A DNA stretch of 37,259 nt from an uncultured Cytophagia bacterium (GTDB lineage Bacteria; Zhuqueibacterota; Zhuqueibacteria; Residuimicrobiales; Residuimicrobiaceae): NCBI GenBank assembly GCA_964554965.1, contig CAZKQR010000003.1, positions 1-37,259 on the forward strand, written 5' to 3'. Of this stretch, positions 1 through 23,709 are shown in pieces; the first letter of the stretch is position 1; the number at the start of each line of letters is the position of its first letter. The position numbers and the translations under genes were made by a program. The notes under the pieces were generated by a model, which ran no database searches, was not told where the DNA came from, and saw only the letters and a list, made by a program, of their open reading frames with translations.

Positions 1-572
1 TCGCCGAAATCAAAAGCCAGACAGGCGGTCTGTATTTCCACACGATAGTTGATATGGCTGTTCGGCCCGACGTTAAAACGGATTTCAATCCGCTCGCACG
101 CGGGCTGCGGCGTGATCTTGAAAAAGGAGAGCTCAAAACCATTTTGAAAATCAAACTCGGGTGTAAACGGGCCCTCCGCCTTCATAAAGCCGGCGCCATC
201 CGCCGGATCAGGAAAGGGCAGCTCCGGATTGCTCGGGCAATCCCCATCGCTGTTCAGCCATTTGATCAGATGATCATAGGATCCGGTCACGAATTCGCCG
301 GTGCCTTCCACAAGCGACCATTCCACCCGCACCCAGACGTATTTCGAATAGTTCTCCCGATAGGTGTTGGCGACATCGATCTTGGCGATGATAAACTGCG
401 CCTGCGGGCCGGTGTTGGAGGCGGTCCCAGTGGCGATGGTCTGAGTCCAGAAGGGCAAATTTTTCGGATTGTCCCACCAGATCGGCGTGTTGGCTGCGCG
501 CACCAGTGTGGCCAGCACAAGGATAAATAACAGGCTCCAACCACTTTGTAGCAAAATTTTCTTGAACGCCAT
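1..572 (-). CDS. secreted protein of unknown function (N-terminal part; gene continues past the left edge)
   Basis: Absent from the ORF track because it has no stop in the window. The reverse strand from ATG 572..570 is open to base 1 and reads MAFKKILLQSGWSLLFILVLATLVRAANTPIWWDNPKNLPFWTQTIATG... GGGAGG lies 8 nt upstream of the ATG. The N-terminus is a typical signal peptide. The listed + ORF 54..530 is its antisense shadow. Confidence 0.6.
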   Translation of the reverse strand, partial: MAFKKILLQSGWSLLFILVLATLVRAANTPIWWDNPKNLPFWTQTIATGTASNTGPQAQFIIAKIDVANTYRENYSKYVWVRVEWSLVEGTGEFVTGSYDHLIKWLNSDGDCPSNPELPFPDPADGAGFMKAEGPFTPEFDFQNGFELSFFKITPQPACERIEIRFNVGPNSHINYRVEIQTACLAFDFG

Positions 573-945: not shown

Positions 946-979
946 CAAAAAAAAGCGCAGCCCTAATCAGGGATCAGCG
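946..979 (-). terminator. candidate intrinsic terminator after the glycosyltransferase operon
   Basis: On the minus strand the last GT2 stop (976..974) lies inside an imperfect hairpin, CGC-TGAT-CCCT-gatt-AGGG-CT-GCG. It is followed directly by C plus T8 (plus-strand A8 at 946..953). The stem is short and has an internal loop. Confidence 0.35.
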
Positions 980-2125
980 TTTTATTTCAGTGGCGCCTCT
1001 GCGGCCCTTCCAGCGAAACAAACCCAATGAGCCCATTACGCCTACGGTGACCACATAGGGAATTTGCAGCATGAACCACAATGGAAAACAGCGTAACAGG
1101 TCGCAACGCTGAAAGTAGCGGCAGCCGCTGCGGGCGATGCAGTACTCGAACCAGCCTTTGGCGGCGAGGCAGATCCACAGCGAAGGACTGTTGAGCGCGC
1201 CGGAAAGATAAAGGATCACCCCGGTCAGCAGCGCAAGGTTGCACGAAAAGGTGAGGATTAGATAGGCGAAGAAAAGCGGATTGAGATGCAGCTGATAACC
1301 GCCATTGGAGGCCCAACGATTGCGTTGATTGATGAAATCCGCCCAGGTGGGCTGCGGGGCAGAGACCGCATAGCTGTCGGGCTCGGAAGCGAACACGATA
1401 TTCCTGTTCGTATGTTTGCGGATCATCTGCATCAGCAGCACATCGTCGCCCGATATGCGCCGGCTGATGGCGCGATAGCCGTCCACTTGATCGAACGCCG
1501 ACCGCCGGTAGCCCAGGTTTTGTCCGGAGGCGGCCAGCGGTACGCCCAGATGCGTGCTCGCCGCCGCCACACCCATCAGGGTGACAAAATCAAACGCCTG
1601 AAACCGTTCCACCAGCTTTTGCGCCTGCCCGGCATGGCCGAATTGCGAAAAGCCGATGACAAAGCCGACGTCCGGATTGAAATAGCGCACCATAGTCGAG
1701 ATCCATTTTTCGCCCACCCGGCAATCGGCGTCGGTGGCCAGGATGATTTCTCCCCGGGACGACTCCACCGCGCATTGCAGGGCGTATTTCTTGGGACTGA
1801 ATCCCGCCGGCGTTTCGCGAATGTCAAGCAGATGCACCTGCGGGCAGCGCGCCGCCAGGGCAGAGACGATATCGGCCGTTCGATCCGTCGATCCGTCATT
1901 GGCCACGATCACTTCATACAGCTCGGCCGGATAATCCTGTTTGATCAGATCCTGAAGCAGGCTGCCGATGCTGCGTTCCTCATTGCGAGCGGCGACGATC
2001 ACCGAAATCCGATAGCGACGGCTGTTGGTTGGCCGATGTGGGCGATGCAGCGCCAGGATAAAGATGAAAATGATCGCACCGTAGAGCACGGTGAGCAGAC
2101 CGATGATGTGCGGCAAGGCATTCAT
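974..2125 (-). CDS. membrane-embedded family 2 glycosyltransferase, paralog 1 (QxxRW type)
   Basis: ORF 974..2224 trimmed to ATG 2125 (MNALPHIIGLLTVLYGAIIF...), which overlaps the upstream stop as ATGA. It has an N-terminal TM helix, then the GT-A motifs ISVIVAARNEE, NDGSTDRT, SPKKYAL, TDADC, SGDDVLL and QRNRW (1313..1327). Several hydrophobic C-terminal helices follow. Confidence 0.85.
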   Translation of the reverse strand: MNALPHIIGLLTVLYGAIIFIFILALHRPHRPTNSRRYRISVIVAARNEERSIGSLLQDLIKQDYPAELYEVIVANDGSTDRTADIVSALAARCPQVHLLDIRETPAGFSPKKYALQCAVESSRGEIILATDADCRVGEKWISTMVRYFNPDVGFVIGFSQFGHAGQAQKLVERFQAFDFVTLMGVAAASTHLGVPLAASGQNLGYRRSAFDQVDGYRAISRRISGDDVLLMQMIRKHTNRNIVFASEPDSYAVSAPQPTWADFINQRNRWASNGGYQLHLNPLFFAYLILTFSCNLALLTGVILYLSGALNSPSLWICLAAKGWFEYCIARSGCRYFQRCDLLRCFPLWFMLQIPYVVTVGVMGSLGLFRWKGRRGATEIKR

Positions 2126-3237
2126 GCGGCGGAGTCGCTCTCCTTCCACGAGACCCGGCAAAACGGGCCCAAAGCGCCGAACAGCACCACATAAAGGACG
2201 TGCGCAACAGCAGCGATGGGCCACACCGTCAAACAGGCAAGGCGTTTCATTTTACCGGCAAAGGCGAGCAGCAGCGGCAGCTCCGAAACCGCCTTGACCG
2301 CCCAAAGGATCAGACCATAACGGCGATAAGACGTGAACAGCGAGGCCAGGAGCAAAAAATTAAACACCCAGGCGCTGAACAACACGCCGGTCATGACCGG
2401 CCCGTAATGAAAACCTTTGGACGCATGGCGCAACCGTTGCCGAATAAAATGGCTGGCGCTTGGCGGAAGATACGTGGGCGCCGCCAGTTCCGGCGCCAGC
2501 GCGTAACGGACGCGCAGGTTCTGTTTCAGGACAAGTTTTAAGAACAGGTCGTCGTCGCCTGAGACAAAACCGGCGATATCCCTGAATCCTCCCACCTGCT
2601 CGTACACCGTTTTTCGATACACCAGGTTTCGGCCTGTGCAGGTCGCCGGCCGGCCCCAGCCGCTGCACCCGGCTGCCAGCGCTGCCAGGGACAACGCTTC
2701 CAGAGCGATCAGGCGCGATCCCAGAGTGTTCAGGGCCGGCAGCTCATAGGGCGAATAACCAATCACCATGGCGATCTCGGGCGTGAACCGGCTTGCCATG
2801 CCTTGCAGCCAGTGGGGTGACGGCCGGCAGTCCGCATCGGTGAACAGCAGCAGTTCTCCGCGGGCCGCCGCGATGGCCTGAGCCAGGGCGTTCTTCTTGG
2901 CTGAAATCACTTTATCCCGGCCCTGAACAGAGATCACCCGCACGGCCGCGGATCCCGGATTACGGCTGAAAGCGAACGCCCGTTCCGCCGTCGCATCGGT
3001 CGAACCGTCGTCGCTGAGAAGGACTTCGTAGCGGTCTTGAGGATAAGTCTGCTCCGACAGAGCCTGCAGTAGAGGGGTCACGTGGCGCTCTTCGTTGCGG
3101 CAGGCGATGATCACCGAGACCATGGGGCGTTGGTGGCTGGTGCGCGGTTCGTCGCGGTACAAACCGGCAAAAATAACGAGCAGGCTCAGGCTGTAAAGGA
3201 CCGTCAACAGGACCGCTATGTAAAGGAAGGGGGCCAA
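2122..3237 (-). CDS. membrane-embedded family 2 glycosyltransferase, paralog 2 (QxxRH type)
   Basis: ORF 2122..3375; its ATG starts all overlap the upstream gene by at least 70 nt. TTG at 3237..3235, 7 nt after the upstream TAA, gives an N-terminus (APFLYIAVLLTVLYSLSLL...) colinear with paralog 1. Motifs: VSVIIACRNEE, SDDGSTDAT, SAKKNAL, TDADC, SGDDDLF, QRLRH (2425..2439). The start codon is uncertain. Confidence 0.8.
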   Translation of the reverse strand: MAPFLYIAVLLTVLYSLSLLVIFAGLYRDEPRTSHQRPMVSVIIACRNEERHVTPLLQALSEQTYPQDRYEVLLSDDGSTDATAERAFAFSRNPGSAAVRVISVQGRDKVISAKKNALAQAIAAARGELLLFTDADCRPSPHWLQGMASRFTPEIAMVIGYSPYELPALNTLGSRLIALEALSLAALAAGCSGWGRPATCTGRNLVYRKTVYEQVGGFRDIAGFVSGDDDLFLKLVLKQNLRVRYALAPELAAPTYLPPSASHFIRQRLRHASKGFHYGPVMTGVLFSAWVFNFLLLASLFTSYRRYGLILWAVKAVSELPLLLAFAGKMKRLACLTVWPIAAVAHVLYVVLFGALGPFCRVSWKESDSAA

Positions 3238-3244
3238 GGGCGCC

Positions 3245-4813
3245 TTAGTAGTTGAGTAAAAGTTCGAACCGCGCCAAATGATCGAACGAGTTGATTCCCG
3301 CCTGGCGATGCACATTGCGGACATCGGCATACTGATAGTGCACGGAGACAAAAAAATCGCGATAGACTTGTTCACGGATTTTTATGCCGAATATTTTTTG
3401 TTTCTCCACGACGCCGCGGAGAAATTTTTTTTCTACGCCTTGCTCAGGGCGGGAGTGCGTGTCGGCGTCACCTTCGCCCTTGCGCTGTTGCTGCCAAGAC
3501 AGCTCGATGCGAAAATCCCGCAACGGCTGCCAGCCCAGCTGTAGAAAGAGACCGTCGGCGTTGGGGCCCAGCCAGTGGCCGATGAGCTGATTAAAGTGGC
3601 TATAGATGTTTATGGAATCATAATGGGAGTATACAAACGGCTCCACCCGCGCATATTCGATGCGCAGATCCGTGTCGGCGATGCGCAGCGGATTGATGAG
3701 CTGGCCGCCGAGGAGAAAAGCGAACTTGTTGCCAAAGTAGCGGGTCAGGCTTTCCGTGCTGGTCATGTCGTCGATGAAATATTCGCCATAGAGTTTAACG
3801 CCGGACCACGGCGTACAGGTCAGGTCCAGGCTCATGGTCTTGTTGTCTTTGTCGCCGAGGTGATGCTGCGCAATGTGGATGGGCATAATGGGATTGAGAT
3901 AGGCGAATTGCACATCGCGTTTGCCATAGACCACGGTCTCGGTGGCGCCGAGGTACAGACCGGGCTTGACCATAAAATCCAACCGGTGGCCTGCCAGGTA
4001 CTTGCTCCCCAGGTTGCTGTGCAAAAAGGCGTGCACATAGCTGAAGGAGAAGCGGTGAAAAAAAGCGTTGAGCCGGATCAGCTCGGCAGCCGGTGTATTC
4101 CCGGAAAGGGAAAGGCCGCCGTGAAAACCCGGCCCCCAGGCGATCTCATCCCGCCCGGCCTGAATGCGGAACCATGTGTTCTGCCAGGTCCAATAGGCCA
4201 GCGCCTGATCTCGATAGACGTTGGAACCAGCGATCACCACCGGCGCGCCTTGAGAGGGATCGAAATGTTCTTCCGTCTTTTGGTTGCCGCGCGTCAAGGT
4301 GTTGCGCGCATCCAGGTAAAAGCCCACGGTCTGATCCAGGCTGCCGCGAAGGATAGCGCCGCCGCTGGTCTCGGAAATCAGCGCATCCGGCTGATACTGA
4401 TGGCCGCGATTGGAGAGGATCGTCTGCTTGGCGTGCAGGTCGATATGGATCCGGCTGTTTTTTTCCCGCCAGGTCAACAGGTGGCGTTCCGAGCTGCGCT
4501 CCGTCGCAGTGGGATTTAATTCGTCAAAAAAATCGCCCTGCAGCTGATCGAGCATTTTCTTTTCGGTTCGACTGAACTGCCCCGGCTTTTGTTGCGCCTG
4601 TACGGCCGCCTGACGCACCAGATCGGCGAACACGGCTCTGGATAGGGGCCGCACGCGCAGTTGATGGCTGAAGATCAGCCCTCTGCTCTCCATGCGCTCC
4701 AGGACGGCATAGCCCCAATACTCCATCGGCACATTGACCGACGGCGCGGTGCCGGCGAGAACGCCGGCCGCTGCCAAAAGCAGGAGTCGAAGAATTTTTT
4801 TGCAGCTGATCAT
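3245..4813 (-). CDS. Wzi-like outer-membrane beta-barrel protein (capsule-assembly Wzi family candidate)
   Basis: ORF 3245..4993 trimmed to ATG 4813 (MISCKKILRLLLLAAAGVLAG, a signal peptide). The segment YWGYAVLERMESRGLIFSHQLRVRPLSRAVFADLV matches my recollection of the helical N-domain of Wzi-family proteins. The rest is beta-strand-like alternating sequence ending in aromatic ...ELLLNY, as in OM barrels. The family call is recall-level. Confidence 0.6.
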   Translation of the reverse strand: MISCKKILRLLLLAAAGVLAGTAPSVNVPMEYWGYAVLERMESRGLIFSHQLRVRPLSRAVFADLVRQAAVQAQQKPGQFSRTEKKMLDQLQGDFFDELNPTATERSSERHLLTWREKNSRIHIDLHAKQTILSNRGHQYQPDALISETSGGAILRGSLDQTVGFYLDARNTLTRGNQKTEEHFDPSQGAPVVIAGSNVYRDQALAYWTWQNTWFRIQAGRDEIAWGPGFHGGLSLSGNTPAAELIRLNAFFHRFSFSYVHAFLHSNLGSKYLAGHRLDFMVKPGLYLGATETVVYGKRDVQFAYLNPIMPIHIAQHHLGDKDNKTMSLDLTCTPWSGVKLYGEYFIDDMTSTESLTRYFGNKFAFLLGGQLINPLRIADTDLRIEYARVEPFVYSHYDSINIYSHFNQLIGHWLGPNADGLFLQLGWQPLRDFRIELSWQQQRKGEGDADTHSRPEQGVEKKFLRGVVEKQKIFGIKIREQVYRDFFVSVHYQYADVRNVHRQAGINSFDHLARFELLLNY

Positions 4814-4878
4814 GGCACTCGTCTTTCCGCGGATTTTATTGCTGCGTCTGATTAAATATATCAAACCACCTGCTTTTT

Positions 4879-5997
4879 TCAAATTCTTTTTTCCCCATCC
4901 AGCTTGCCGCGAGTATAGCGCCGCTCCTTCCAGACAAAACGCCCGCGCCAGGCCAGCAAACCGACCATGAGCGTGTAAAGCACCTGCCACCATTGCGCCA
5001 GCAGAAAATCGCCCAGATTTTTCCGGCCTGGCGGGGCGCCGGTCCGGTACAGCAGGCCGGCATCGCAGAAAATTTTGACGAGAAAAAAAATAAGCCAGGA
5101 CGGTCTGAAAAGCACCAACATACCCAGCAGCAGCAGGGAGGCGTTATAGAGAAAAATAAACCCCTCCAGTGCAATGATGGAAAATGGATAGAGAGCGGTT
5201 TTGGACGCCCAGCGCAACCGCTGCTGCAAAAAAGCGGACAGAGAATCGCACGAGGTCGTACGGACCCGGCAGTCCGGCGCGTCGGCGAAAGCGACGAGGT
5301 GTTTATTGCGCCGCATTTTTTGCAACAGCAGATCATCATCACCGGAAGCGGCCGCCTCGATACCGTAAAATCCGCCGGCCTGATCATACAGAGCTCGACG
5401 GTAGCCCCAGTTGGCGCCGTTGGCCAGGAACGGCCGTTGATGACCGACGGCCGCTGCGCCGACGACCTGAAACGACCAGGCATCCAGAGCCTCCAACCGG
5501 GATAATAGGGACCCGCTTGATGCGATATCCACCCAGGACACCACGGCGCCGACCCTTTGCGCAAAATAGCTGATCATGGTTTCAATCCATCGGACCGGCG
5601 CCACACAGTCCGCATCAGTGGTCAGAATGATCTCTGCGTGGCTGTGTTGAATGCCCAGGTGCAGTGCCGCTTTTTTGGGCGACCATCCTGGTGGAAGGGG
5701 CTTGGATAAAAAGCAGCGGACGCCATGGGCTTGAGCCACAGCGGCCGTATCATCGGACGAATCGTCATCCACCACCAGGATCTCGTAGCGGTCGGATGGA
5801 TAGCTCTGCCGTTGCAGGGCGTCGAGACACCGGCCCAGGGCTTTCGCCTCATTGCGCGCAGGGATGATCACGACGACGTGAGGCTGCTCCGCCGTGCGAC
5901 GCTGTCGGCGCAGCCGGCGCAGACCGGCCCAGAGCCACAGGCTAAAGACGCCGTAGAGCAACGACATCAATCCATAATAGATGAACGCCGCGTTCAC
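4879..5997 (-). CDS. membrane-embedded family 2 glycosyltransferase, paralog 3 (QxxRW type)
   Basis: ORF 4879..6591 trimmed to GTG 5997..5995, which overlaps the upstream TGA as GTGA. This gives NAAFIYYGLMSLLYGVFSLWLW..., colinear with the other paralogs. Motifs: VVVIIPARNEA, VDDDSSDDT, SPKKAAL, TDADC, SGDDDLLL, QRLRW (5209..5223). Confidence 0.8.
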   Translation of the reverse strand: MNAAFIYYGLMSLLYGVFSLWLWAGLRRLRRQRRTAEQPHVVVIIPARNEAKALGRCLDALQRQSYPSDRYEILVVDDDSSDDTAAVAQAHGVRCFLSKPLPPGWSPKKAALHLGIQHSHAEIILTTDADCVAPVRWIETMISYFAQRVGAVVSWVDIASSGSLLSRLEALDAWSFQVVGAAAVGHQRPFLANGANWGYRRALYDQAGGFYGIEAAASGDDDLLLQKMRRNKHLVAFADAPDCRVRTTSCDSLSAFLQQRLRWASKTALYPFSIIALEGFIFLYNASLLLLGMLVLFRPSWLIFFLVKIFCDAGLLYRTGAPPGRKNLGDFLLAQWWQVLYTLMVGLLAWRGRFVWKERRYTRGKLDGEKRI

Positions 5998-6965
5998 GCA
6001 GGTTCCTGCATGGAATCCTTCGGGCTCTGCAGCACCCGGCTTTTCATCAGGACGGCAAAGCCGGCCACGGCGGGCAAGAGCACGTTGATGGCGAATAACA
6101 ACAGCGCACTGTCGAACGCCGCGGCCTCTGACACCTGCAGTTTGCCGAGGAAATAGATGGACGCGCTCTCGCGGATGCCCAAATCGCCCAGGGAAACCGG
6201 AAGCAGGGTTTTGCTCCACATGATGGCCGCCACGGCCGAAAGCCCGGAACGAAGCGGCAATGGTGCAAAGGCTCGAATGAGCAGATAAAATTGCCCGAGA
6301 TACACCGCCACCTGAGCGATGGTGTAAAACAACAGCGAGCGCGACACTTGCGGCGTCAGCCGGGTAACGCCGTTGAGGACCTGCTGCAGCCGTTTGTGTT
6401 TGCCGGAGCTGTTGAACCGCTTGAGCACATAGTTGAGAAAGGCAGGGTGCAATGCCAGACCGATGCCGGCCAGCACCAGCGCCAATCCGGTGGTCTCCAC
6501 CGGAACCCACAGCTCCGGGCGCAACGCGGCGCGCAGGAAGGGGAGCAAGCCCCACAAGCCGGCGAAATAAACCACCAGCAGAGCATACCATTTTTCGATC
6601 AACATCAGGCCCATCAGTCCCAGCCAGCTGGCGCCGGGGATGAGCACGGTGCGGCCCAGATCTCCGATCCGGCCCGGCGTGATCAGACCGAGGGTGATGC
6701 CGGCAAACAACGAAAGTAAAAGTTCTTTTGCAGAGATCGCCGGGTCAAATTGCCTTACAATGAGCTGCCAGCGTTTGAACTGGCAGTACAGATTGGGCGC
6801 CAGCAAAACCAGAGCGGCTGTAATCAAGCCGTGCTGAGCGTTGACCGCCGCATTGCGCAGATCGACCCAACTGATTCGGTGAATCAGCAGCCCCAGCACG
6901 CACAACGCGACCAGGATCTTGCTCCAGCTGATCCATTTTTTGTTATTGATAAAGGTCCAGTCCAT
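5994..6965 (-). CDS. flippase-like polytopic membrane protein (lysyl-phosphatidylglycerol synthase TM region / UPF0104 family)
   Basis: 323 aa and almost entirely hydrophobic helices. It carries the paired motifs I associate with the family: ITPGRIGDLGR and SLGDLGIRESA. Its start overlaps the upstream radical SAM gene by 23 nt. Confidence 0.7.
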   Translation of the reverse strand: MDWTFINNKKWISWSKILVALCVLGLLIHRISWVDLRNAAVNAQHGLITAALVLLAPNLYCQFKRWQLIVRQFDPAISAKELLLSLFAGITLGLITPGRIGDLGRTVLIPGASWLGLMGLMLIEKWYALLVVYFAGLWGLLPFLRAALRPELWVPVETTGLALVLAGIGLALHPAFLNYVLKRFNSSGKHKRLQQVLNGVTRLTPQVSRSLLFYTIAQVAVYLGQFYLLIRAFAPLPLRSGLSAVAAIMWSKTLLPVSLGDLGIRESASIYFLGKLQVSEAAAFDSALLLFAINVLLPAVAGFAVLMKSRVLQSPKDSMQEPA

Positions 6966-7956
6966 GAGTACAGTTGTTGCAAATTTCAGGTTTACAGGAT
7001 CCAGCGACGCGCCGGCGAAAGTGCCGCAGCGCCTCTCCCCGCCAGATGGTGATAAAGGGCTGTTCGGTCAGACGGCCGAGAAGCGCGCTCTCGTCTTTGT
7101 CAAAGCAGCAGCCCACCACATGGCCGTCCTGATGAATAACGCAACCGGTCCACAAGCGATCGCAGATTTTGTTCTTTTTACTTTTAACAGTCAGCCCACC
7201 GGAGTCGAGGGTGTAGCGCCGGTACTTTTCAGCCAGTGGTAAAAACCGATCCGCATCTTGCGGCGAGCGCACCTGAACGGATTTGATCAGGACACAGTCG
7301 GCGCCCCAGCGGCGCGCGGTGTCGCGCACCCGCTCCACCTCGTGTTCGTTGTGCTTCATCACCAGAAACTGCAGGCAGATGCGGGGTGTTTTTTGCCTCA
7401 GCTGCTCCCTGGCTTGGCGCAAATGGGCAATGGCGGCAACCACCCGCTCGAGCCGCGCACCCCTGCGATAGATTTGAAAAGTCGACTCCTCCAGACCATC
7501 CACAGACAGAATGATCTGGTCCAGGCCGCTGGACGCCAGGTCACGGGCTTGAGCAAAATCCGCCAGCAGCTGCCCGTTGCTGCTGCAGGTCACAACCACC
7601 TTGGCCGCTTTGGCCGTCCGGACCATCTCCACAAACTCCGCGTGCAACAGCGGCTCCCCCTGATCATAGAGCAAAAGATAGAGCAAGGATCGCTGTGTTT
7701 GCTGCAGGATTCGTTGATACAGCGCCAGCGACAGATCCCCCTGTGGCCGCTGCAGCAGACCGGCGCCGGTGCTGCACTGCGGGCAGGCCAGGTTGCAGCG
7801 ATTGGTTGGCTCAATGGTCAATACCAGCGGAAGACCCCAGGAGATCGGCCGGCCTGACAACCTGGAGAGGCCCAGAGAGATATAGACCCGGCCCAGATTC
7901 ATCAGCCGATACGGCGTAAGACAGGCCAGGAGACGAAAAAGCGGCACTTCTTTCAT
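6943..7956 (-). CDS. radical SAM enzyme with SPASM/twitch-like Cys-rich C-terminus
   Basis: ORF 6943..8151 trimmed to ATG 7956 (MKEVPLFRLL...), overlapping the upstream stop as ATGA. CNLACPQC (CX3CX2C) is at 7774..7797. The C-terminal region reads CDRLWTGCVIHQDGHVVGCC (CX12GX4C) ... CKPEICNNC, seven Cys in total. Confidence 0.85.
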   Translation of the reverse strand: MKEVPLFRLLACLTPYRLMNLGRVYISLGLSRLSGRPISWGLPLVLTIEPTNRCNLACPQCSTGAGLLQRPQGDLSLALYQRILQQTQRSLLYLLLYDQGEPLLHAEFVEMVRTAKAAKVVVTCSSNGQLLADFAQARDLASSGLDQIILSVDGLEESTFQIYRRGARLERVVAAIAHLRQAREQLRQKTPRICLQFLVMKHNEHEVERVRDTARRWGADCVLIKSVQVRSPQDADRFLPLAEKYRRYTLDSGGLTVKSKKNKICDRLWTGCVIHQDGHVVGCCFDKDESALLGRLTEQPFITIWRGEALRHFRRRVAGSCKPEICNNCTHGLDLYQ

Positions 7957-8765
7957 CTTTTGCCGGCCAGCACGTAAAAAGTGGGCATCAGCCATTGACT
8001 CAGCCACCCCGGCTGTTGCGGCGTCCGTGCCACCAGGGGGCCGGCAAGTTTCCACATGCTCAGGCGACGCACCAGCGCAAGATGCCAGGCCCGGTTCCAC
8101 AAAGCTTGCGGTTGAGCCAGGGCCAGAGTAGCGACCTCGCGGATCTGCCATTTGGATTTCAGCTGCGATTTCTCCAGCATACGGTTCAGCTCGCGCCAGG
8201 ACAACAGCTGGGCGATATCCGGTTTGTCCGCGTCGAACCAGTGCAACCAGTTCACGATAATTTTTTTAATCGCAGCCCGCTGCATGCAGGAGATCAGCGG
8301 CAGACTGTAGTGCGGGTCGCACAAAAGGTGGACCGGCGACCATTTGTTGGGCGTGGAAAAACAGATCACGCCGGTTGCCTTGAGTGACCGGCTGCATCGC
8401 GCGAGCAGGTGCGAGGGGTTGGCGACGTGTTCAAGCACGTCCCAGAGCAGGATGGCGTCCAGGGGGCGATCTGCCCGCCACTTCAGCACATCCCGGCAGT
8501 GAATTGAAACAGACAGACCTTCCTGGATTGCCTGGGTCTCGAGCAGCTGCAAAGCCTCGCTGCGGATATCCACTGCCGCCACCCGGCAGCCGCAGCGGGC
8601 CAGCTGCAGGCTGGCCCCACCGGTCCCACAGCCCAGATCCGCAACCTCGGCGTTGTTCAAGGGGAGGTGCTGCGCCAGCCATTCGGCCGCCAGACGGCCA
8701 CGGTGATGCGAAAAAGCGCGGTATTGCGACCACAGGGCGCTGTTGATCGTGCTGGTCATGGTCAT
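7953..8765 (-). CDS. class I SAM-dependent methyltransferase
   Basis: Motif I, VADLGCGTGGASLQLARCG, followed by the acidic loop VAAVD. The layout is typical of the Methyltransf_11/23 type. The ATG is 1 nt after the upstream TAG. Confidence 0.8.
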   Translation of the reverse strand: MTMTSTINSALWSQYRAFSHHRGRLAAEWLAQHLPLNNAEVADLGCGTGGASLQLARCGCRVAAVDIRSEALQLLETQAIQEGLSVSIHCRDVLKWRADRPLDAILLWDVLEHVANPSHLLARCSRSLKATGVICFSTPNKWSPVHLLCDPHYSLPLISCMQRAAIKKIIVNWLHWFDADKPDIAQLLSWRELNRMLEKSQLKSKWQIREVATLALAQPQALWNRAWHLALVRRLSMWKLAGPLVARTPQQPGWLSQWLMPTFYVLAGKR

Positions 8766-8766
8766 C

Positions 8767-9849
8767 CTAACGCCAGGTTGCCGGCTGCTGCCAGCGATGC
8801 CAGGCCACCCAGGTGTGATAGAGTAAAAAGAGCGGCTGCCAAGCCAGAAAGCCGGCCAGCGGCAGCTTTTGCTGTAAAGGCCGGGCGATGGAATAAAGGG
8901 CGAGGCCGTCCAGCAGCACTTTCAGCCCAAACGGCAGCATCAGCCTGGGAGTGAATAGAATTCCAACCAAAAAACCGGCCCACAGCCCAGCGTTCAGAAG
9001 GTGATAGACACCATAAACAGCCTGAGCCGGCAGCGGATAATGCGCGCCGGCGGAGAGATGACGTTTTTTCTGTTTTATAAATTCGTGCCAGTTCTGCGGG
9101 CCCTGGGCCGGCACCACCGAATCCGCAGACAGACAGTAGCGGATGCCGCCGCATTGGCTCAGCCGCTGGATGATGAAATCATCATCGCCCGACAGCGAGT
9201 CCGGCAAATCGGTAAAGCCCTGAATGCGCTGCCAGGCGGAGCGGCGATAGGCCAGATTGCGGCCGGAACCGGTGATCCCTATGCCGCGGCCGATGGTTCC
9301 GGCGGCCACCAGGGCGGCGGCAAGGCTGTCGGCCAGTAAAAAGCCGCGCCACCAGGAATCAGACGGACAGGTCTGTGGAGAAAAGCCGGCGACCAGACAG
9401 GTTTGATCCTGGAACCGGCTGGCCATGTTTCTTATCCATGCAGGCGGCGGCAGACAATCGGCATCGGTCAACAGCAGCCATTCGCCCTGCGCCTGTTCGA
9501 TCGCAGCGTGCAGGGCGGCCTTTTTCGAGCTCTTCCACGGCTGAGGCGGAGCAGCGGACAACAAGCGCCAATCCGGCCGGTCTTTGATGAACTCTTGAAC
9601 CCAAGCCCCGGTGCCGTCGGTGGAGTGATCATCTACGATGAGGACAGTATAATTGGGGTAATCCTGTTTCGCCAGCGCCTGCAGACAGAGCGGGATCCGG
9701 TTTCGTTCATTTTGTGCGGCAACAACGACGCTAACCGCTGCGTCGCTCAGGCCGCTGTCCAACCCAGCCTGTTTACGGTCGACCCCGGTGACCACCCAGA
9801 CCAGGATGATTCCATAGAGGAGCAGCAGCAGCCATAGCAATACCATCAT
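8767..9849 (-). CDS. membrane-embedded family 2 glycosyltransferase, paralog 4 (QxxRH type)
   Basis: ORF 8767..9948 trimmed to ATG 9849 (MMVLLWLLLLLYGIILVWVV...), with GGAG 10 nt upstream. Motifs: VSVVVAAQNE, VDDHSTDGT, SSKKAAL, TDADC, SGDDDFI, QKKRH (9058..9072). Confidence 0.8.
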   Translation of the reverse strand: MMVLLWLLLLLYGIILVWVVTGVDRKQAGLDSGLSDAAVSVVVAAQNERNRIPLCLQALAKQDYPNYTVLIVDDHSTDGTGAWVQEFIKDRPDWRLLSAAPPQPWKSSKKAALHAAIEQAQGEWLLLTDADCLPPPAWIRNMASRFQDQTCLVAGFSPQTCPSDSWWRGFLLADSLAAALVAAGTIGRGIGITGSGRNLAYRRSAWQRIQGFTDLPDSLSGDDDFIIQRLSQCGGIRYCLSADSVVPAQGPQNWHEFIKQKKRHLSAGAHYPLPAQAVYGVYHLLNAGLWAGFLVGILFTPRLMLPFGLKVLLDGLALYSIARPLQQKLPLAGFLAWQPLFLLYHTWVAWHRWQQPATWR

Positions 9850-9871
9850 ACCCGGATTCTCCGAACCGTGC

Positions 9872-9900
9872 AAAGTATCCAAAATATCCTTAACAATCAA
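9872..9900 (-). promoter_or_regulatory. sigma70-type promoter candidate for the glycosyltransferase operon
   Basis: Minus strand: TTGATT (9900..9895), 17 nt, TACTTT+G (9877..9871). It lies in an AT-rich island 22 nt upstream of the GT2 paralog 4 ATG. Confidence 0.5.
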
Positions 9901-9935
9901 GAAATTTATCGGCCGGTCCGGCGCAGGGAAATCGA

Positions 9936-9964
9936 TTGACAGAGCCAAATCAATTTTGTATTTT
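9936..9964 (+). promoter_or_regulatory. sigma70-type promoter candidate for slt-tex
   Basis: TTGACA (9936..9941), 17 nt, TATTTT (9959..9964). It is divergent from the GT operon promoter. Confidence 0.5.
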
Positions 9965-10018
9965 TACTCAGCTGAGATAAACCCGGCGACAGGTCGGTTC
10001 CTGCATAGGGAGAACAAA

Positions 10019-10720
10019 ATGGCCGTAAAAGAGGAAAAATTCCTGCACAACCTGCGCATCATCATCTGGGTGCTTTCCGCCCTGGTGCTGGTGGTGATTG
10101 CGGCAGTGGGCATCAAGTATACCTACAACAGCCGCTACCAGAAAAAAGTGGCGGAGCTGGAAGGGGTGATCAAAAGCCAGCGCTCTTCGATGAACATCGA
10201 AAGCCTGCGCCAGTATAACATTGTGCGCATTAGTGCCATCATCTCCCAGTACAACCGCATCATGCCCGGCCCGATCAAATACGACATCGCCCGTGAGATC
10301 TATGACGCCAGCCTTTTGCACACCAGCCTGGATGTACATCTGGTCTGCGCCATCATCACCTATGAGACCAACGGAACTTGGAATCCGGAGCTGATCTCCT
10401 CGGAGGGCGCTATGGGATTGATGCAGGTGATGCCGATCACCGGCATGTACATCGCCCGCTCCATGCATCTCAACTGGGTGACGCCGGATGAGATCCTGCT
10501 CAATCCGATTCACAACATCCGCATCGGCGCCCGCTATCTGGCCGCGCTGATCGATCTGTATGGCGTGGACGGCGCGCTGGCCGCCCGGCGTGTGGGCGAA
10601 TGGCGGGCGGCTCTGTGGATTAAAGGCGGCCATCGCAGCGGCACGCTGCCGGATGATGTGCAAAAGTATATGAATGACGTTTTGAAACAGTATGAAGCAT
10701 TAAAGCAGTTTAAAGGTTAG
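10019..10720 (+). CDS. lytic transglycosylase domain protein (SLT family), membrane anchored
   Basis: ORF 9956..10720 trimmed to ATG 10019 (GGGAG 7 nt upstream). It has an N-terminal TM segment, IIIWVLSALVLVVIAAV. The SLT motif is YETNGTWNPELISSEGAMGLMQVMP ... IRIGARYL. Confidence 0.8.
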   Translation: MAVKEEKFLHNLRIIIWVLSALVLVVIAAVGIKYTYNSRYQKKVAELEGVIKSQRSSMNIESLRQYNIVRISAIISQYNRIMPGPIKYDIAREIYDASLLHTSLDVHLVCAIITYETNGTWNPELISSEGAMGLMQVMPITGMYIARSMHLNWVTPDEILLNPIHNIRIGARYLAALIDLYGVDGALAARRVGEWRAALWIKGGHRSGTLPDDVQKYMNDVLKQYEALKQFKG

Positions 10721-13044: not shown

Positions 13045-13740
13045 ATGCTCTGCACAGTTATTGAACCCTCTTACTTTCTGCGGCAGGATGAATGCGCGAA
13101 AGCGCTGCAGGCGGACGTCGTCATCTGGGCGGATTCGTTTTCTTTTCGCCGGCACAGCACCATCAACCGCGCGGCGATCAAGACCGTGCACGGCGCTCAC
13201 TGGCTGACCATCCCGGTGTTGTCAAGAGGCCATGCCGGCCAATCCATCCGCGAAACCAGAATACAGAATCAGGAGGATTGGCGCACCGGCCATTTAAAGA
13301 CGTTGGAGATCAACTATCACCTCACGCCCTGGTACGATGCCCTGGCGGACAAAATCGCCGCTGCACTGCAAGATTCCTGGACGCATCTCAATCCCTATCT
13401 GCAGTGCCAGGTCGCGGTTCTAGCGCCGCCCAGACCGCTCTGCGCTGTCGGCAGCAGCACTCTGCAGCCTCACGCCGATCGCACGGATCGAGTGATCGCC
13501 TGGATGCGGCAGCTGCACGCGGACGCTTACCTGGTGCATGCGCATCAAGTTCCTCTGCTCGACGTGCCGCGTCTGCAGCAAAGTGGAATGGGTCTCTATG
13601 TCTTCCGGTTCACCGCGCCGGTCTATCAGCAGGCGTTCGCCGGACATGTTCCTCATCTGGCGATGATCGATCTGGTGTGCAACGAGGGTCCGGCGAGTTA
13701 CGGCCTTTTACAGCGGGCCGGACGTGTACAATCCCTGTAA
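13045..13740 (+). CDS. WbqC-like family protein
   Basis: N-terminal pattern IEPSYF...ADVVIWADSFSFRRHSTINRAAIKT..GAHWLTIPV...I.E..I....W...HLKTLEINY...PWY, as I recall for the WbqC family (PF08889). Function unknown. Confidence 0.65.
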   Translation: MLCTVIEPSYFLRQDECAKALQADVVIWADSFSFRRHSTINRAAIKTVHGAHWLTIPVLSRGHAGQSIRETRIQNQEDWRTGHLKTLEINYHLTPWYDALADKIAAALQDSWTHLNPYLQCQVAVLAPPRPLCAVGSSTLQPHADRTDRVIAWMRQLHADAYLVHAHQVPLLDVPRLQQSGMGLYVFRFTAPVYQQAFAGHVPHLAMIDLVCNEGPASYGLLQRAGRVQSL

Positions 13741-20872: not shown

Positions 20873-20896
20873 GTTTAGCAAAGGAGAAAATAAAAG

Positions 20897-22153: not shown

Positions 22154-22174
22154 AAAGGATCGAGGAGATATGAG

Positions 22175-22582: not shown

Positions 22583-22602
22583 GCGTTGAGTGGACGCTTT
22601 TT
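22582..22602 (+). terminator. weak intrinsic terminator candidate after proBA-VOC
   Basis: AGCGT-tgagtgg-ACGCT followed by TTTT, starting at the last base of the VOC TGA stop codon. The stem is only 5 bp. Confidence 0.3.
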
Positions 22603-23699: not shown

Positions 23700-23709
23700 A
23701 GGCCGCCGC

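What the first reader, a model, noticed from the sequence alone, without database searches (positions are those of the whole stretch)
974..9900. Eight-gene operon: four paralogous membrane GT2s, a radical SAM/SPASM enzyme, a methyltransferase, an MprF-type flippase-like protein and a Wzi-like OM barrel, with no canonical export machinery
Seen in the sequence:
- All eight genes are on the minus strand behind one strong promoter candidate (9872..9900).
- A hairpin plus T8 follows the last gene.
- Junctions are ATGA (2122..2125, 7953..7956), GTGA (5994..5997), a 1-nt spacer (8766), a 23-nt overlap (6943..6965), 7 nt (3238..3244) and one 65-nt spacer (4814..4878). This implies translational coupling.
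- The four GT2s (360-383 aa) are colinear. Each has an N-terminal TM helix, then xSV(I/V)xAxxNE, DDxSxDxT, SxKKxAL, TDADC, SGDD(D/V) and QxxR(W/H), then a multi-helix C-terminus.

Established knowledge:
- That layout is characteristic of membrane-integrated GT2s that glycosylate lipids or polymerise and translocate glycans (CrtQ/CruC, MGlcDG synthase, glucosylceramide synthase, HpnI, NodC, PgaC, BcsA).
- The PF03706-type domain is the lipid-flipping part of MprF.
- Wzi retains capsule at the outer membrane.

Inference: the locus builds a methylated, radical-SAM-modified oligoglycosyl lipid or short surface glycan. It would be flipped by the UPF0104 protein and displayed through the Wzi-like barrel. 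The operon contains no Wzx/Wzy, Wza/Wzc, ABC exporter, initiating phosphoglycosyltransferase or nucleotide-sugar genes. I cannot match this gene set to any characterised locus from memory.
Basis: partly seen in the sequence, partly recalled or inferred. Interest (0 to 1): 0.72.

Follow-up and report, generated by a model that had tools for sequence, protein, structure and literature searches.

The report
Uncharacterised KSB1 envelope glycoconjugate gene cluster
The eight genes are real and are the first part of a conserved 13-gene cluster in the uncultured bacterial phylum KSB1 that most likely builds a chemically tailored sugar-lipid or lipid-anchored sugar chain for the outer membrane; no characterised system matches it.

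Summary
The eight minus-strand genes, their junctions, Pfam families and GT2 motifs are all as described. The "strong" promoter and the terminator hairpin are weak.

- **Source.** The window comes from a KSB1 (Zhuqueibacterota) bacterium, about 94% identical to MAG contigs related to 'bacterium ADurb.Bin478'.
- **Cluster size.** The window is cut about 970 bp after the last GT2. In three KSB1 relatives the cluster continues with up to five more conserved genes: two more radical SAM enzymes, a DUF3108 protein, a fifth membrane GT2 and a PHP-type metallohydrolase.
- **GT2 paralogs.** The five GT2s form five positionally conserved orthogroups, each with its own fixed active-site variant. This suggests five distinct steps.
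- **Structure models.** GT2d models confidently (pLDDT 93) as a minimal cellulose-synthase-like membrane GT2 with four TM helices. The barrel's best TM-score match is Wzi.
- **Radical SAM.** The SPASM enzyme's closest solved relatives modify sugars or cyclitols (BtrN, BlsE). Its family is very large. It lies next to GT2 and/or UPF0104 genes in Calditrichota and Ignavibacteria, and one member is fused to a GT2.

No curated NCBIfam model reaches its cut-off for any of the eight proteins, and my literature searches found nothing on the locus. My best reading (about 0.45) is a lipid-anchored oligosaccharide tailored by methylation and radical chemistry, flipped, and held at the outer membrane. The product is unknown.

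The parts
8767..9849 (-). GT2a: membrane GT2 of 360 aa, first gene. Orthogroup 'a', with QKxRH and SGDDDF variants.
   Evidence: Pfam PF00535 89.6 bits, plus PF13641 and PF13506. Best NCBIfam hit is CruG at 63 bits against a cut-off of 600. Orthologs at the same position in L088, L089 and L087.
7953..8765 (-). Class I SAM-dependent methyltransferase, 270 aa.
   Evidence: PF13489 65 bits, plus PF13649 and PF08241. Best NCBIfam hit is UbiG at 63 bits, below its cut-off of 103. A 34% ortholog sits at the same position in L087.
6943..7956 (-). rSAM1: radical SAM enzyme of 337 aa with a C-terminal SPASM/twitch-type auxiliary-cluster domain and a conserved amphipathic N-terminal extension.
   Evidence: PF04055 plus PF13186. 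CxxxCxxC at C54/C58/C61, and five invariant C-terminal Cys (C265, C283, C284, C326, C329). Closest PDB relatives are BtrN (81 bits), BlsE (58) and GDGT-MAS (51). No TM helix by hydropathy.
5994..6965 (-). UPF0104 / LPG_synthase_TM (MprF flippase-like) polytopic membrane protein, 323 aa.
   Evidence: PF03706 60.8 bits against a cut-off of 33.4, full length. At least 5 hydrophobic segments. A 41% ortholog in L087.
4879..5997 (-). GT2b: membrane GT2 of 372 aa with a GTG start. Orthogroup 'b', with QRxRW and SGDDDL.
4814..4878 (-). 65-nt spacer before the barrel gene. It holds the -10 element of the best sigma-70-like site in the region (4882..4855, TTGAAA-16-TATATT, TG-extended).
   Evidence: This is a consensus match only. 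The spacer is 22 nt in the 94% relative.
3245..4813 (-). Wzi-like outer-membrane beta-barrel of 522 aa, with a signal peptide and an N-terminal helical domain.
   Evidence: PF14052 67.9 bits against a cut-off of 30.1. AF2 pLDDT 86 and pTM 0.85, with about 18-20 strands after helices at residues 34-99. The highest TM-score in the Foldseek table is to Wzi 2YNK (0.59/0.69); AlgE reaches up to 0.50/0.62.
2122..3237 (-). GT2c: membrane GT2 of 371 aa with a TTG start. Orthogroup 'c', with QRxRH and SGDDDLF.
974..2125 (-). GT2d: membrane GT2 of 383 aa. Orthogroup 'd', with QRxRW and SGDDV. This is the paralog that was modelled.
   Evidence: AF2 pLDDT 93.1, pTM 0.90. TM helices at 3-26, 283-307, 315-337 and 341-366. 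Foldseek: PcManGT 6YV7 (TM 0.68/0.75), BcsA (up to 0.71), Xl-HAS1 (up to 0.71).
947..980 (-). Weak terminator-like element: an interrupted stem followed by T8 (947-954).
   Evidence: -7.7 kcal/mol, z -0.43. Not called by the scan.
9850..10018 (.). Divergent intergenic region between GT2a and the SLT gene. It presumably holds the operon promoter.
   Evidence: The SLT-GT2a divergent arrangement is conserved in L001, L005 and L087.
1..572 (-). 5' part (190 codons) of a GEVED/FlgD_ig/T9SS-tail protein gene. It is a lineage-specific insertion between GT2d and the rest of the cluster, which lies outside the window.
   Evidence: tblastn gives 95% identity to the L088 704-aa protein. The gene is absent at this position in L089 and L087.

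Best explanation
The eight genes are the upstream block of a conserved KSB1 cluster that assembles a lipid-anchored oligosaccharide (a glycolipid or short lipid-linked glycan) for the outer membrane.

**Proposed mechanism**
1. Five paralogous membrane-embedded GT2s work at the cytoplasmic face of the inner membrane (four in the window, a fifth downstream). Each has a minimal cellulose-synthase-like fold and its own fixed acceptor-site variant. Each adds one defined sugar to a membrane lipid acceptor or to the growing head group.
2. The head group is tailored by the methyltransferase and by radical SAM enzymes. rSAM1, in the window, is BtrN-like with what looks like one twitch-type auxiliary cluster, so it would probably oxidise or rearrange a sugar carbon. 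rSAM2, the BlsE-like rSAM3 and a PHP metallohydrolase lie downstream.
3. The UPF0104 (MprF-flippase-like) protein moves the product to the periplasmic leaflet.
4. The exported DUF3108 protein and the Wzi-like 18-strand-type barrel receive or retain it at the outer membrane.

**Shown**
- Gene order, domain identities and folds.
- Conservation of the cluster and 1:1 orthology of the paralogs.
- Linkage of rSAM1 with GT2 and/or UPF0104 in two other phyla.

**Inferred**
- The lipid acceptor, the order of steps, the chemistry of each radical SAM enzyme, flipping, and the role at the outer membrane.
For: 1. **Fold.** GT2d is a confident membrane GT2 with only four TM helices plus interface helices. 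Its closest structure is the minimal cellulose-synthase-like PcManGT.
2. **Nearest curated families.** These are mostly lipid-glycosylating GT2s (CruG, HpnB, HpnI), though MftF and PgaC also rank among the top hits, all far below cut-off. A source annotates the ortholog as MGlcDG synthase.
3. **Distinct paralogs.** The five GT2 paralogs are 28-37% identical to each other. They form five positionally conserved orthogroups across KSB1, each with its own QxxR(W/H) and GDD/ED variant. This fits five non-redundant steps better than one processive polymerase.
4. **A separate flippase-like protein.** It is conserved in the cluster. A self-translocating synthase would not need one.
5. **Sugar-directed radical SAM enzymes.** rSAM1 is closest to BtrN and BlsE. 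rSAM3 is closest to BlsE (80 bits). One family member is a natural GT2-rSAM1 fusion.
6. **Linkage in other phyla.** rSAM1 lies beside a GT2 in four Calditrichota loci, two of which also carry UPF0104. One of these has a Wzi-like barrel and three GT2s. In Ignavibacteria rSAM1 is followed by UPF0104 and GT2, with a DUF1207 protein inserted in one of the two loci.
7. **Precedents.** GT plus radical SAM remodelling of a glycolipid head group is known for HpnI/HpnJ and for calditol synthase (PMC13459092). hpnL is a UPF0104 relative enriched near shc loci (bioRxiv 10.1101/2025.07.29.667474).
8. **Outer-membrane parts.** The barrel's best TM-score is to Wzi. DUF3108 has a signal peptide and is described as having the YmcC fold (PMC4364669).
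Against: - No lipid-synthesis gene (isoprenoid, hopanoid, carotenoid, ceramide or acyltransferase) lies in or next to the cluster in any of four genomes, so the acceptor is unknown.
- QxxRW GT2s with fold similarity to BcsA and HAS (TM about 0.7) can be processive. Structure alone does not separate a lipid GT from a synthase.
- Using five membrane-embedded GT2s for successive sugars is unusual. Later steps in known pathways normally use peripheral GTs.
- rSAM1 has no TM helix. It is absent from the otherwise complete cluster in L087 and stands alone in most Bacteroidota. Its substrate therefore need not be the product of these GT2s.
- UPF0104 flippase activity is established only for MprF. The function of HpnL is unknown.
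- Wzi itself is a lectin, not a lipid receptor.
- The organism is uncultured, so there are no chemical data.
Confidence: 0.45

Rival explanations
1. Synthase-dependent exopolysaccharide system. One or more of the GT2s are processive synthase-translocases like BcsA, PgaC, Alg8 or HAS. The polymer is tailored by the methyltransferase and radical SAM enzymes and leaves through, or is anchored by, the 18-strand-type barrel, which would act like AlgE.
For: - GT2d superposes on BcsA and hyaluronan synthase with TM up to 0.71.
- QxxRW is present in GT2b, GT2d and GT2e.
- PgaC is the best NCBIfam hit for GT2d at 75 bits.
- The barrel also matches AlgE, with TM up to 0.50/0.62.
- No Wzx/Wzy or ABC exporter is present, which is typical of synthase-dependent systems.
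Against: - GT2d has only four TM helices, against eight in BcsA.
- No PilZ, PgaD, Alg44-type co-polymerase or TPR scaffold is present.
- Five distinct, individually conserved GT2 orthogroups are not expected for a homopolymer synthase.
- A dedicated flippase-like protein would be redundant.
- The barrel's best TM-score is to the plugged lectin Wzi, with its N-terminal helical domain, rather than to an open exporter.
Confidence: 0.2
2. Lipid-phosphate sugar donor factory, of the AglD, GtrB/GtrA or ArnC type. The GT2s charge polyprenyl phosphate with different sugars. UPF0104 flips them, and the sugars are then transferred in the periplasm to another envelope polymer such as peptidoglycan, LPS or a protein.
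For: - InterPro groups UPF0104 with 'lysyl-PG synthetase / glycosyltransferase AglD' (quoted). From my own recollection, not tested here, AglD joins a GT2 domain to this membrane domain.
- Weak NCBIfam hits to ArnC, DPM and PpgS-type enzymes.
- A conserved SLT lytic transglycosylase lies upstream, and Mur ligase and RodZ lie downstream.
- The Bacteroidota neighbours of rSAM1 are envelope enzymes: GHL10, GH25 and Lnb.
Against: - No GT-C-type periplasmic transferase (GtrC, ArnT or AglS-like) is in the cluster.
- The GT2s have the cellulose-synthase-like QxxRW architecture rather than the DPMS/GtrB architecture. GtrB and ArnC rank far lower in both the sequence and the fold searches.
- Five donors in one operon would be unprecedented.
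Confidence: 0.12
3. Glycosylated small molecule or RiPP pathway, analogous to mycofactocin (MftC rSAM/SPASM, MftF GT2, MftM methyltransferase) or to glycocins.
For: - The locus combines rSAM/SPASM, GT2 and a methyltransferase.
- MftF is the best or second-best NCBIfam hit for GT2b and GT2c (76-82 bits). MftC scores 60 bits and MftM 34 bits.
- A 48-codon ORF follows GT2d in L001.
Against: - All scores are far below the cut-offs of 280, 265 and 200.
- There are no MftA, B, D or E homologs, and no peptidase or precursor.
- The small ORF is not conserved. In L087 GT2d abuts DUF3108.
- The flippase-like protein and the outer-membrane barrel do not fit a cytoplasmic cofactor.
- rSAM1 has only five invariant C-terminal Cys and is closest to BtrN, not to peptide maturases.
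Confidence: 0.05
4. Head-group decoration of a specific polycyclic or polyene lipid (hopanoid or carotenoid glycosides), that is, a distant hpnI/J/K/L or CruC/CruG locus.
For: - HpnI, HpnB and CruG are among the top NCBIfam hits for all five paralogs.
- The composition of GT2 plus rSAM plus UPF0104 parallels hpnI-hpnJ-hpnL.
Against: - Scores are 56-80 bits against cut-offs of 310-600.
- HpnJ was not among the listed rSAM1 matches. From memory it is a B12-type radical SAM enzyme; rSAM1's only Pfam domains are Radical_SAM and SPASM.
- No HpnK is present, and UPF0104 does not hit the HpnL model.
- No shc, hpnH or crt gene lies within 10 kb in four genomes.
Confidence: 0.08

Closest known systems
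Hopanoid head-group module hpnI-hpnJ-hpnK(-hpnL)
   Same: A membrane GT2 glycosylates a membrane lipid, and a radical SAM enzyme then remodels the sugar. A UPF0104-type membrane protein of unknown role is linked to hopanoid loci. HpnI and HpnB are among the best curated hits for the GT2s.
   Different: No model cut-off is reached (at most 80 bits against 310). HpnJ was not among the listed matches for rSAM1, whose only Pfam domains are Radical_SAM and SPASM. There is no deacetylase and no hopanoid gene nearby. This cluster has five GT2s and three radical SAM enzymes, plus outer-membrane proteins.
Calditol synthase (Cds) pathway of Sulfolobus
   Same: A radical SAM enzyme is proposed to convert a hexose head group of a membrane lipid into a cyclitol (PMC13459092). 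This is a precedent for radical tailoring of glycolipid head groups.
   Different: It is archaeal and acts on a GDGT lipid. Homology to rSAM1-3 was not tested, because no Cds sequence was available.
Synthase-dependent exopolysaccharide systems (BcsA, PgaC, Alg8/AlgE, HAS)
   Same: GT-A domain plus interface helices plus TM helices, with the D,D,D,QxxRW motifs. Fold TM-scores reach about 0.7. An outer-membrane barrel is encoded alongside, and there is no Wzx/Wzy or ABC exporter.
   Different: Only four TM helices. No PilZ or co-polymerase, and no TPR scaffold. There are five non-redundant GT2 paralogs and a separate flippase-like protein. The barrel's best TM-score match is Wzi.
PcManGT (PDB 6YV7), membrane mannosyltransferase of Pyrobaculum calidifontis
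   Same: It is the best structural match (TM 0.68/0.75, E 4e-16) and the second-best PDB sequence hit (E 1e-11). It has the same minimal membrane GT2 architecture.
   Different: Only about 20% identity. It is archaeal, and it is a single enzyme rather than a paralog series.
Wzi of E. coli group 1 capsules (PDB 2YNK)
   Same: Pfam PF14052 scores above its cut-off. The predicted barrel with an N-terminal helical domain has its highest TM-score to 2YNK (0.59/0.69).
   Different: 13% identity. No Wza, Wzb, Wzc or Wzy partners are present. In one distant genome (L086) the homolog sits in an unrelated context.
MprF flippase domain and other UPF0104 (PF03706) proteins such as AglD
   Same: Full-length PF03706 match. 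It is genetically coupled to GT2s.
   Different: No lysyl-PG synthase domain. It falls below the TIGR00374 cut-off (19 against 43 bits). No activity has been tested.
BtrN and BlsE, radical SAM enzymes that act on sugars or cyclitols
   Same: They are the closest solved relatives of rSAM1. BtrN scores 81 bits, with the best-scoring stretch covering the C-terminal auxiliary-cluster domain. BlsE scores 58 bits. BlsE is also closest to rSAM3 at 80 bits.
   Different: Similarity is remote. rSAM1 has an extra conserved N-terminal extension of about 40 residues. The substrates are unrelated (aminoglycoside and nucleoside antibiotics).

Membership tests
Pfam GT2 families (PF00535/PF13641/PF13506), membrane GT2 with cellulose-synthase-like fold | GT-A domain scoring above the Pfam gathering cut-off, with D / DxD / catalytic D / QxxRW-type motifs. 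| tested here: met
   All four window GT2s score 68-90 bits on PF00535 and 46-59 bits on PF13506. The motifs are conserved. GT2a and GT2c have QxxRH.
Pfam GT2 families (PF00535/PF13641/PF13506), membrane GT2 with cellulose-synthase-like fold | Integral membrane architecture (TM plus interface helices) resembling BcsA, HAS or PcManGT. | tested here: met
   AF2 pLDDT 93 with four TM helices. Foldseek TM 0.65-0.75 to 6YV7 and 0.67-0.71 to BcsA and HAS. Only GT2d was modelled.
Processive synthase-dependent EPS systems (Bcs/Pga/Alg/Pel) | A c-di-GMP receptor or co-polymerase (PilZ, PgaD, Alg44, PelD) and a periplasmic TPR scaffold. | tested here: not met
   No such domain appears in the eight window proteins or the five downstream proteins.
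Processive synthase-dependent EPS systems (Bcs/Pga/Alg/Pel) | Processive polymerisation and translocation by the GT2. | not testable with these tools
   This needs an enzyme assay or analysis of the product.
hpnIJKL hopanoid head-group pathway | HpnI equivalog (TIGR03472, at least 310 bits); HpnJ radical SAM enzyme; HpnK; HpnL (TIGR03476); linkage to shc. | tested here: not met
   HpnI scores 40-80 bits. HpnJ is not among the listed rSAM1 matches. UPF0104 hits only TIGR00374, at 19 bits. No shc lies within 10 kb in four genomes.
Wzi (PF14052) capsule-assembly outer-membrane proteins | Sequence match above the gathering score, and a Wzi-type beta-barrel with an N-terminal helical bundle. | tested here: met
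   67.9 bits against 30.1. Model pLDDT 86. 2YNK has the highest TM-score, 0.59/0.69.
Wzi (PF14052) capsule-assembly outer-membrane proteins | Operates with a Wzy-dependent group 1 capsule machinery (Wza/Wzb/Wzc). | tested here: not met
   None of these is in the cluster or within 10 kb of it in relatives.
MprF-type flippase domain (PF03706 / UPF0104) | Full-length match to the LPG_synthase_TM model. | tested here: met
   60.8 bits against 33.4, covering residues 16-302 of 323.
MprF-type flippase domain (PF03706 / UPF0104) | Lipid flipping activity. | not testable with these tools
   Established only for MprF. The function of HpnL is stated to be unknown.
Radical SAM / SPASM-twitch enzymes | A CxxxCxxC radical SAM cluster motif and a C-terminal Cys-rich auxiliary-cluster domain. 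| tested here: met
   C54/C58/C61 are invariant. C265, C283, C284, C326 and C329 are invariant. PF04055 scores 56 bits and PF13186 46.5 bits. The best-scoring stretch of the BtrN match covers the C-terminal domain. Five Cys suggest one auxiliary cluster (inference).
Mycofactocin system (MftA-F, MftM) | MftC, MftF and MftM equivalog scores, and the presence of MftA, B, D and E. | tested here: not met
   MftC 60 against 265 bits, MftF at most 82 against 280, MftM 34 against 200. No other Mft genes are present.
Wzx/Wzy-, ABC- or phosphoglycosyltransferase-initiated glycan pathways | An initiating PGT (WbaP or WecA type), a Wzx flippase, a Wzy polymerase or an ABC exporter. | tested here: not met
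   No matching Pfam or NCBIfam family appears in the 13 proteins. The only ABC transporter in the window is pstSCAB at 27.5-31.7 kb.

The most novel reading that the evidence does not exclude
The cluster, together with its minimal rSAM1-UPF0104-GT2(-barrel) form in Calditrichota and Ignavibacteria, specifies a previously unknown class of outer-membrane glycolipid in the FCB superphylum. Its sugar head group would be rearranged by radical chemistry (for example into a keto-sugar or cyclitol). It would reach the surface by a route that uses none of the known export machineries: a UPF0104 flippase, then a YmcC-fold DUF3108 protein, then a Wzi-like barrel. As a corollary, the large stand-alone rSAM1 family of Bacteroidota would be a general envelope-sugar-modifying enzyme with no characterised member.
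Probability: 0.22. Interest if true: 0.8.

Novelty: new variant of a known kind. Interest (0 to 1): 0.58.

Why it matters
- **Envelope of an uncultured phylum.** KSB1 (Zhuqueibacterota) has no cultured member, and the phylum-level genome paper I checked says nothing about its envelope. A conserved 13-gene cluster with five membrane GT2s and three radical SAM enzymes is likely to define a major surface molecule of these organisms. It could be a new lipid biomarker for anaerobic sediments and digesters.
- **An export route outside the three textbook glycan pathways.** The cluster combines a UPF0104 protein, a DUF3108 protein and a Wzi-like barrel, and contains no known export machinery.
- **A large uncharacterised enzyme family.** rSAM1 belongs to a family of at least 6,488 clusters at 50% identity (E ≤ 1e-30). 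Members occur in cultured Bacteroidota genera such as Dyadobacter, Sediminibacterium and Lacibacter. The link to glycosylation found here gives a concrete hypothesis that can be tested in culturable strains.

Tried and rejected
- **Source contig.** An exact look-up of the window's UPF0104 protein found nothing on record. Close relatives were reached through homologs instead.
- **RNA genes.** The Rfam and tRNA scans of the window found nothing.
- **Curated families.** The NCBIfam scan of all eight proteins reached no curated cut-off.
- **PDB sequence searches.** Searches with the barrel, DUF3108 and the PHP protein gave no meaningful hit.
- **Literature.** Searches for the domain combination and for KSB1, Calditrichota or Ignavibacteria glycolipids found nothing relevant. 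The Zhuqueibacterota paper does not mention glycosyltransferases, radical SAM enzymes, LPS or capsules.
- **Bacteroidota neighbours of rSAM1.** I looked for a conserved partner gene. Only loosely recurrent envelope genes appeared (GHL10, GH25, Lnb, MarR, AI-2E permease), and no GT2 or UPF0104 lay within 10 kb.
- **Membrane anchoring of rSAM1.** I considered a TM anchor and rejected it, because hydropathy shows no TM segment.
- **RiPP precursor.** I considered the 48-codon ORF after GT2d in L001 and rejected it, because it is not conserved.
- **PTO1314-family lead.** rSAM3 scores 84 bits on this model. I could not test whether that family includes calditol synthase, because no Cds sequence could be fetched.

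Full report
**1. Observation**

ORF listing shows eight consecutive minus-strand ORFs between 974 and 9849.
- ATGA overlaps at 2122-2125 and 7953-7956.
- A GTGA overlap at 5994-5997.
- A 1-nt spacer at 8766.
- A 23-nt overlap at 6943-6965.
- A 7-nt spacer at 3238-3244, with a TTG start for GT2c.
- A 65-nt spacer at 4814-4878.

Independent gene calls on related contigs give the same eight genes.

Two regulatory claims are weaker than stated.
- The proposed promoter at 9872-9900 matches only about 7 of 12 consensus positions and was not returned by the scan. The scan's best site in the region (10/12, TG-extended) lies in the 65-nt spacer before the barrel gene.
- The 'hairpin plus T8' is a T8 run (947-954) after an interrupted stem of -7.7 kcal/mol. 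That is no better than shuffled sequence (z = -0.43).

**2. Domain identities**

- PF00535, PF13641 and PF13506 in the four GT2s.
- Class I methyltransferase families in the MT.
- PF04055 plus PF13186 (radical SAM plus SPASM).
- PF03706 (LPG_synthase_TM).
- PF14052 (Wzi).

No curated NCBIfam model reaches its cut-off. The best GT2 hits are CruG, HpnB, HpnI, MftF and PgaC, at 42-82 bits against cut-offs of 280-600. None of the eight proteins therefore belongs to a named, characterised family.

**3. Source and true extent of the cluster**

Homologs of the radical SAM enzyme, GT2d and the barrel are named 'bacterium ADurb.Bin478', 'candidate division KSB1' and 'Candidatus Zhuqueibacterota'. The window is 93-94% identical at the DNA level to a 473-kb metagenome contig.

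The window ends about 970 bp after GT2d, but the cluster does not.
- In the 94% relative (L088) and in a 56-68% relative (L089), GT2d is followed by five more genes:
  - rSAM2 (351-353 aa, weak SPASM match).
  - A DUF3108 protein (254-256 aa) with a signal peptide.
  - A fifth membrane GT2, here called GT2e (368-371 aa).
  - rSAM3 (334-337 aa), whose closest solved relative is BlsE.
  - A 530-aa PHP-type CehA/McbA metallohydrolase (93 bits against a cut-off of 80).
- A 6.5-Mb KSB1 genome (L087) has the same order without rSAM1 and rSAM2. It keeps orthologs of the MT (34%), UPF0104 (41%), rSAM3 (45%), the PHP protein (41%) and DUF3108 (30%), and the same ordered series of five GT2s and the Wzi-like barrel.
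- The flanks are conserved as well. An SLT lytic transglycosylase lies divergently upstream. R3H, Mur-ligase and RodZ genes lie convergently downstream, followed by Maf.
- In the window's lineage, a gene for a GEVED/T9SS-tail protein is inserted after GT2d. Its first 190 codons occupy window positions 572-3.

The 'eight-gene operon' is therefore the upstream block of a 13-gene cluster. Within KSB1, rSAM1 is an accessory tailoring gene.

**4. The GT2 paralogs**

The four window paralogs and GT2e are 28-37% identical to each other. On a neighbour-joining tree, their counterparts in L088, L089 and L087 fall into five clean orthogroups that keep their positions in the cluster.

Each orthogroup has its own fixed active-site variant, conserved across KSB1 relatives whose orthologs are as little as 36-49% identical to the window's:

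| Orthogroup | QxxRW-type motif | Catalytic-D motif |
|---|---|---|
| a | QKxRH | SGDDDF |
| b | QRxRW | SGDDDL |
| c | QRxRH | SGDDDLF |
| d | QRxRW | SGDDV |
| e | QRxRW | (I/V)EDF |
| single GT2 of Calditrichota | QQxRK | SGDDVH |

This pattern is expected for five non-redundant enzymes with different acceptors. It is not expected for redundant copies of one polymerase.

**5. Structure models**

- **GT2d** models with mean pLDDT 93 and pTM 0.90. It has one N-terminal TM helix, a GT-A domain, interface helices and three C-terminal TM helices.
  - The best Foldseek match is the Pyrobaculum membrane mannosyltransferase PcManGT (6YV7; TM 0.68/0.75).
  - BcsA and hyaluronan synthase follow, with query-normalised TM scores up to 0.71.
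  - By sequence, PcManGT is the second-best PDB hit (E 1e-11, after a soluble Leptospira glycosyltransferase). Ceramide glucosyltransferase is just detectable at E 7e-4.
- **The barrel** models with pLDDT 86. It has a signal peptide, an N-terminal helical domain and about 18-20 strands. Its highest TM-score is to Wzi (2YNK; 0.59/0.69). OccD2 ranks slightly ahead by E-value, and AlgE reaches up to 0.50/0.62.

**6. The SPASM radical SAM family (rSAM1)**

- An 18-sequence alignment shows the CxxxCxxC motif and five invariant C-terminal cysteines. It also shows a conserved, non-TM N-terminal extension.
- The closest solved structures act on sugars, a cyclitol or a lipid: BtrN (81 bits, with the best-scoring stretch over the auxiliary-cluster domain), BlsE (58 bits) and GDGT-MAS (51 bits).
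- The family is very large. It has 6,488 clusters at 50% identity with E ≤ 1e-30.
- In Bacteroidota the gene stands alone. This includes the cultured genera Sediminibacterium, Dyadobacter, Lacibacter, Agriterribacter and Polluticaenibacter. Its neighbours are only loosely recurrent envelope genes.
- In Calditrichota, rSAM1 lies beside a GT2 in four loci, and two of these also carry UPF0104. One locus reads UPF0104-GT2-Wzi | rSAM1-GT2-GT2.
- In Ignavibacteria, rSAM1 is followed by UPF0104, GT2 and a 466-aa protein (DUF6600 where scanned). One of the two loci has a DUF1207 protein between rSAM1 and UPF0104.
- One family member is a natural fusion of a TuaG/WcaA-like GT2 domain to the rSAM1 domain.
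- Together these results tie rSAM1 to glycosylation rather than to peptide maturation.

**7. Most likely mechanism**

Shown:
- Membrane GT2s, a flippase-family protein, sugar-type radical SAM enzymes and a methyltransferase.
- An exported DUF3108 protein and a Wzi-fold outer-membrane barrel.
- Conserved co-linearity of these genes.

Inferred:
- The GT2s add sugars one at a time to a membrane lipid at the cytoplasmic face.
- The methyltransferase, rSAM1-3 and the PHP hydrolase tailor the head group.
- UPF0104 flips the product.
- DUF3108 and the barrel hold it at the outer membrane.

Precedents:
- DUF3108 is described as having the YmcC fold (PMC4364669).
- A GT followed by radical SAM remodelling of a glycolipid head group is known for HpnI/HpnJ and for calditol synthase (PMC13459092).
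- A UPF0104 relative, hpnL, is enriched near shc loci, although its function is unknown (10.1101/2025.07.29.667474).

I put this reading at about 0.45. The main weaknesses are that no gene identifies the lipid acceptor, and that fold alone cannot exclude processive synthesis.

**8. Rival explanations**

- **Synthase-dependent exopolysaccharide system (0.2).** The BcsA/HAS-like fold, QxxRW and the lack of other exporters fit. The four-TM architecture, the missing co-polymerase, PilZ and TPR parts, the five distinct orthogroups and the separate flippase-like protein argue against it.
- **Polyprenyl-phosphate sugar donor factory of the AglD/GtrB type (0.12).** The UPF0104 coupling and the peptidoglycan-related flanks fit. 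No GT-C transferase is present, and the GT2s are not DPMS-like.
- **Distant hopanoid or carotenoid glycoside locus (0.08).** It fails every membership test I could run.
- **Mycofactocin-like or RiPP reading (0.05).** It also fails every membership test I could run.

**9. Novelty and significance**

All the parts belong to known superfamilies. The logic of GT2 plus radical SAM plus UPF0104 acting on a membrane-bound sugar has precedents. I therefore rate the locus a new variant of a known kind, not categorically new.

What is new:
- The combination of genes and its scale (five membrane GT2s and three radical SAM enzymes).
- The outer-membrane parts, in a cluster with no known export machinery.
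- Conservation across several divergent KSB1 lineages and linkage of rSAM1 to GT2 genes in two other phyla.
- The link it provides to a very large uncharacterised radical SAM family.

No characterised locus matched in the NCBIfam scan or the literature searches. Interest is moderate to high (0.58). The product is unknown and the organism is uncultured, but related modules in other FCB phyla and the stand-alone Bacteroidota homologs could make the hypothesis testable.

Noticed in passing
outside the window; L088:13872-19424, L089:11563-17152, L087:13887-18429: The cluster continues past the window edge with rSAM2, DUF3108, a fifth membrane GT2, the BlsE-like rSAM3 and a 530-aa PHP/CehA-McbA metallohydrolase. 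L087 has the downstream block without rSAM2.
   Followed up: yes
P0492 (632 aa, metagenome representative): A natural fusion of a soluble TuaG/WcaA-like GT2 domain to an rSAM1-type radical SAM/SPASM domain. P0473 is a tandem duplication of the radical SAM domain.
   Followed up: partly
L011-L085 (Bacteroidota loci): The rSAM1 family is very common in Bacteroidota, including the cultured genera Dyadobacter, Sediminibacterium, Lacibacter and Agriterribacter. There it has no GT2 or UPF0104 neighbour. Recurrent neighbours are GHL10 (17 loci), a 153-aa winged-helix (MarR-like by eye) protein (12), Lnb-like (9), GH25 muramidase (9) and AI-2E permease (7).
   Followed up: partly
L058:7915-13506 and L069:9995-14657 (Ignavibacteria): A compact module of rSAM1 - UPF0104 - GT2 - a 466-aa protein (DUF6600 in L058). 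L058 has a DUF1207 protein between rSAM1 and UPF0104. In L058 the divergent upstream gene is BshC; L069 has a 541-aa gene in the same place. DUF1207 may be a different outer-membrane protein in the place taken by Wzi in KSB1 (not tested).
   Followed up: partly
window 1-572 (-): The N-terminal 190 codons of a GEVED / FlgD_ig / T9SS C-terminal-sorting-domain protein, 95% identical to L088. It is inserted between GT2d and rSAM2 only in this lineage.
   Followed up: yes
window 4855-4882 (-): The best sigma-70-like match of the region (TTGAAA-16-TATATT with TG) sits at the end of GT2b and in the 65-nt spacer. The barrel gene and the genes after it may therefore have their own promoter. The spacer is only 22 nt in the 94% relative.
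   Followed up: no
window 9956-10720 (+) and L087/L089 flanks: An SLT lytic transglycosylase lies divergently upstream of GT2a. R3H, Mur-ligase and RodZ genes lie convergently downstream of the full cluster, followed by Maf. Both arrangements are conserved in L089 and L087. This may be simple synteny or an envelope-related link.
   Followed up: no
L086:10001-11578 (CP070762.1): In a more distant genome, the 44% Wzi-like homolog sits beside an epimerase, a soluble GT2, methylmalonyl-CoA mutase and a methyltransferase, with no membrane GT2s. The barrel is therefore not strictly tied to the cluster.
   Followed up: partly
window 13045-13740 (+): A WbqC-like protein (PF08889, 121 bits) followed by an M20 peptidase. 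In L004/L005 a GT1/GT4-type glycosyltransferase sits next to the WbqC gene. This could be a second glycan-related unit about 3 kb from the operon.
   Followed up: no
window 19742-32603: Housekeeping context: proB, a proA-like gene, mnmA, an S9 peptidase (939 aa), phoU, pstS-pstC-pstA with two pstB copies, and a metallophosphoesterase. There are no nucleotide-sugar or lipid-synthesis genes.
   Followed up: yes
window 34113-36386 (+) and 36507-37118 (-): ORFs of 757 aa and 203 aa with no Pfam match at E ≤ 1e-4. A 458-aa ORF overlaps the first on the opposite strand, so the true gene was not resolved.
   Followed up: no
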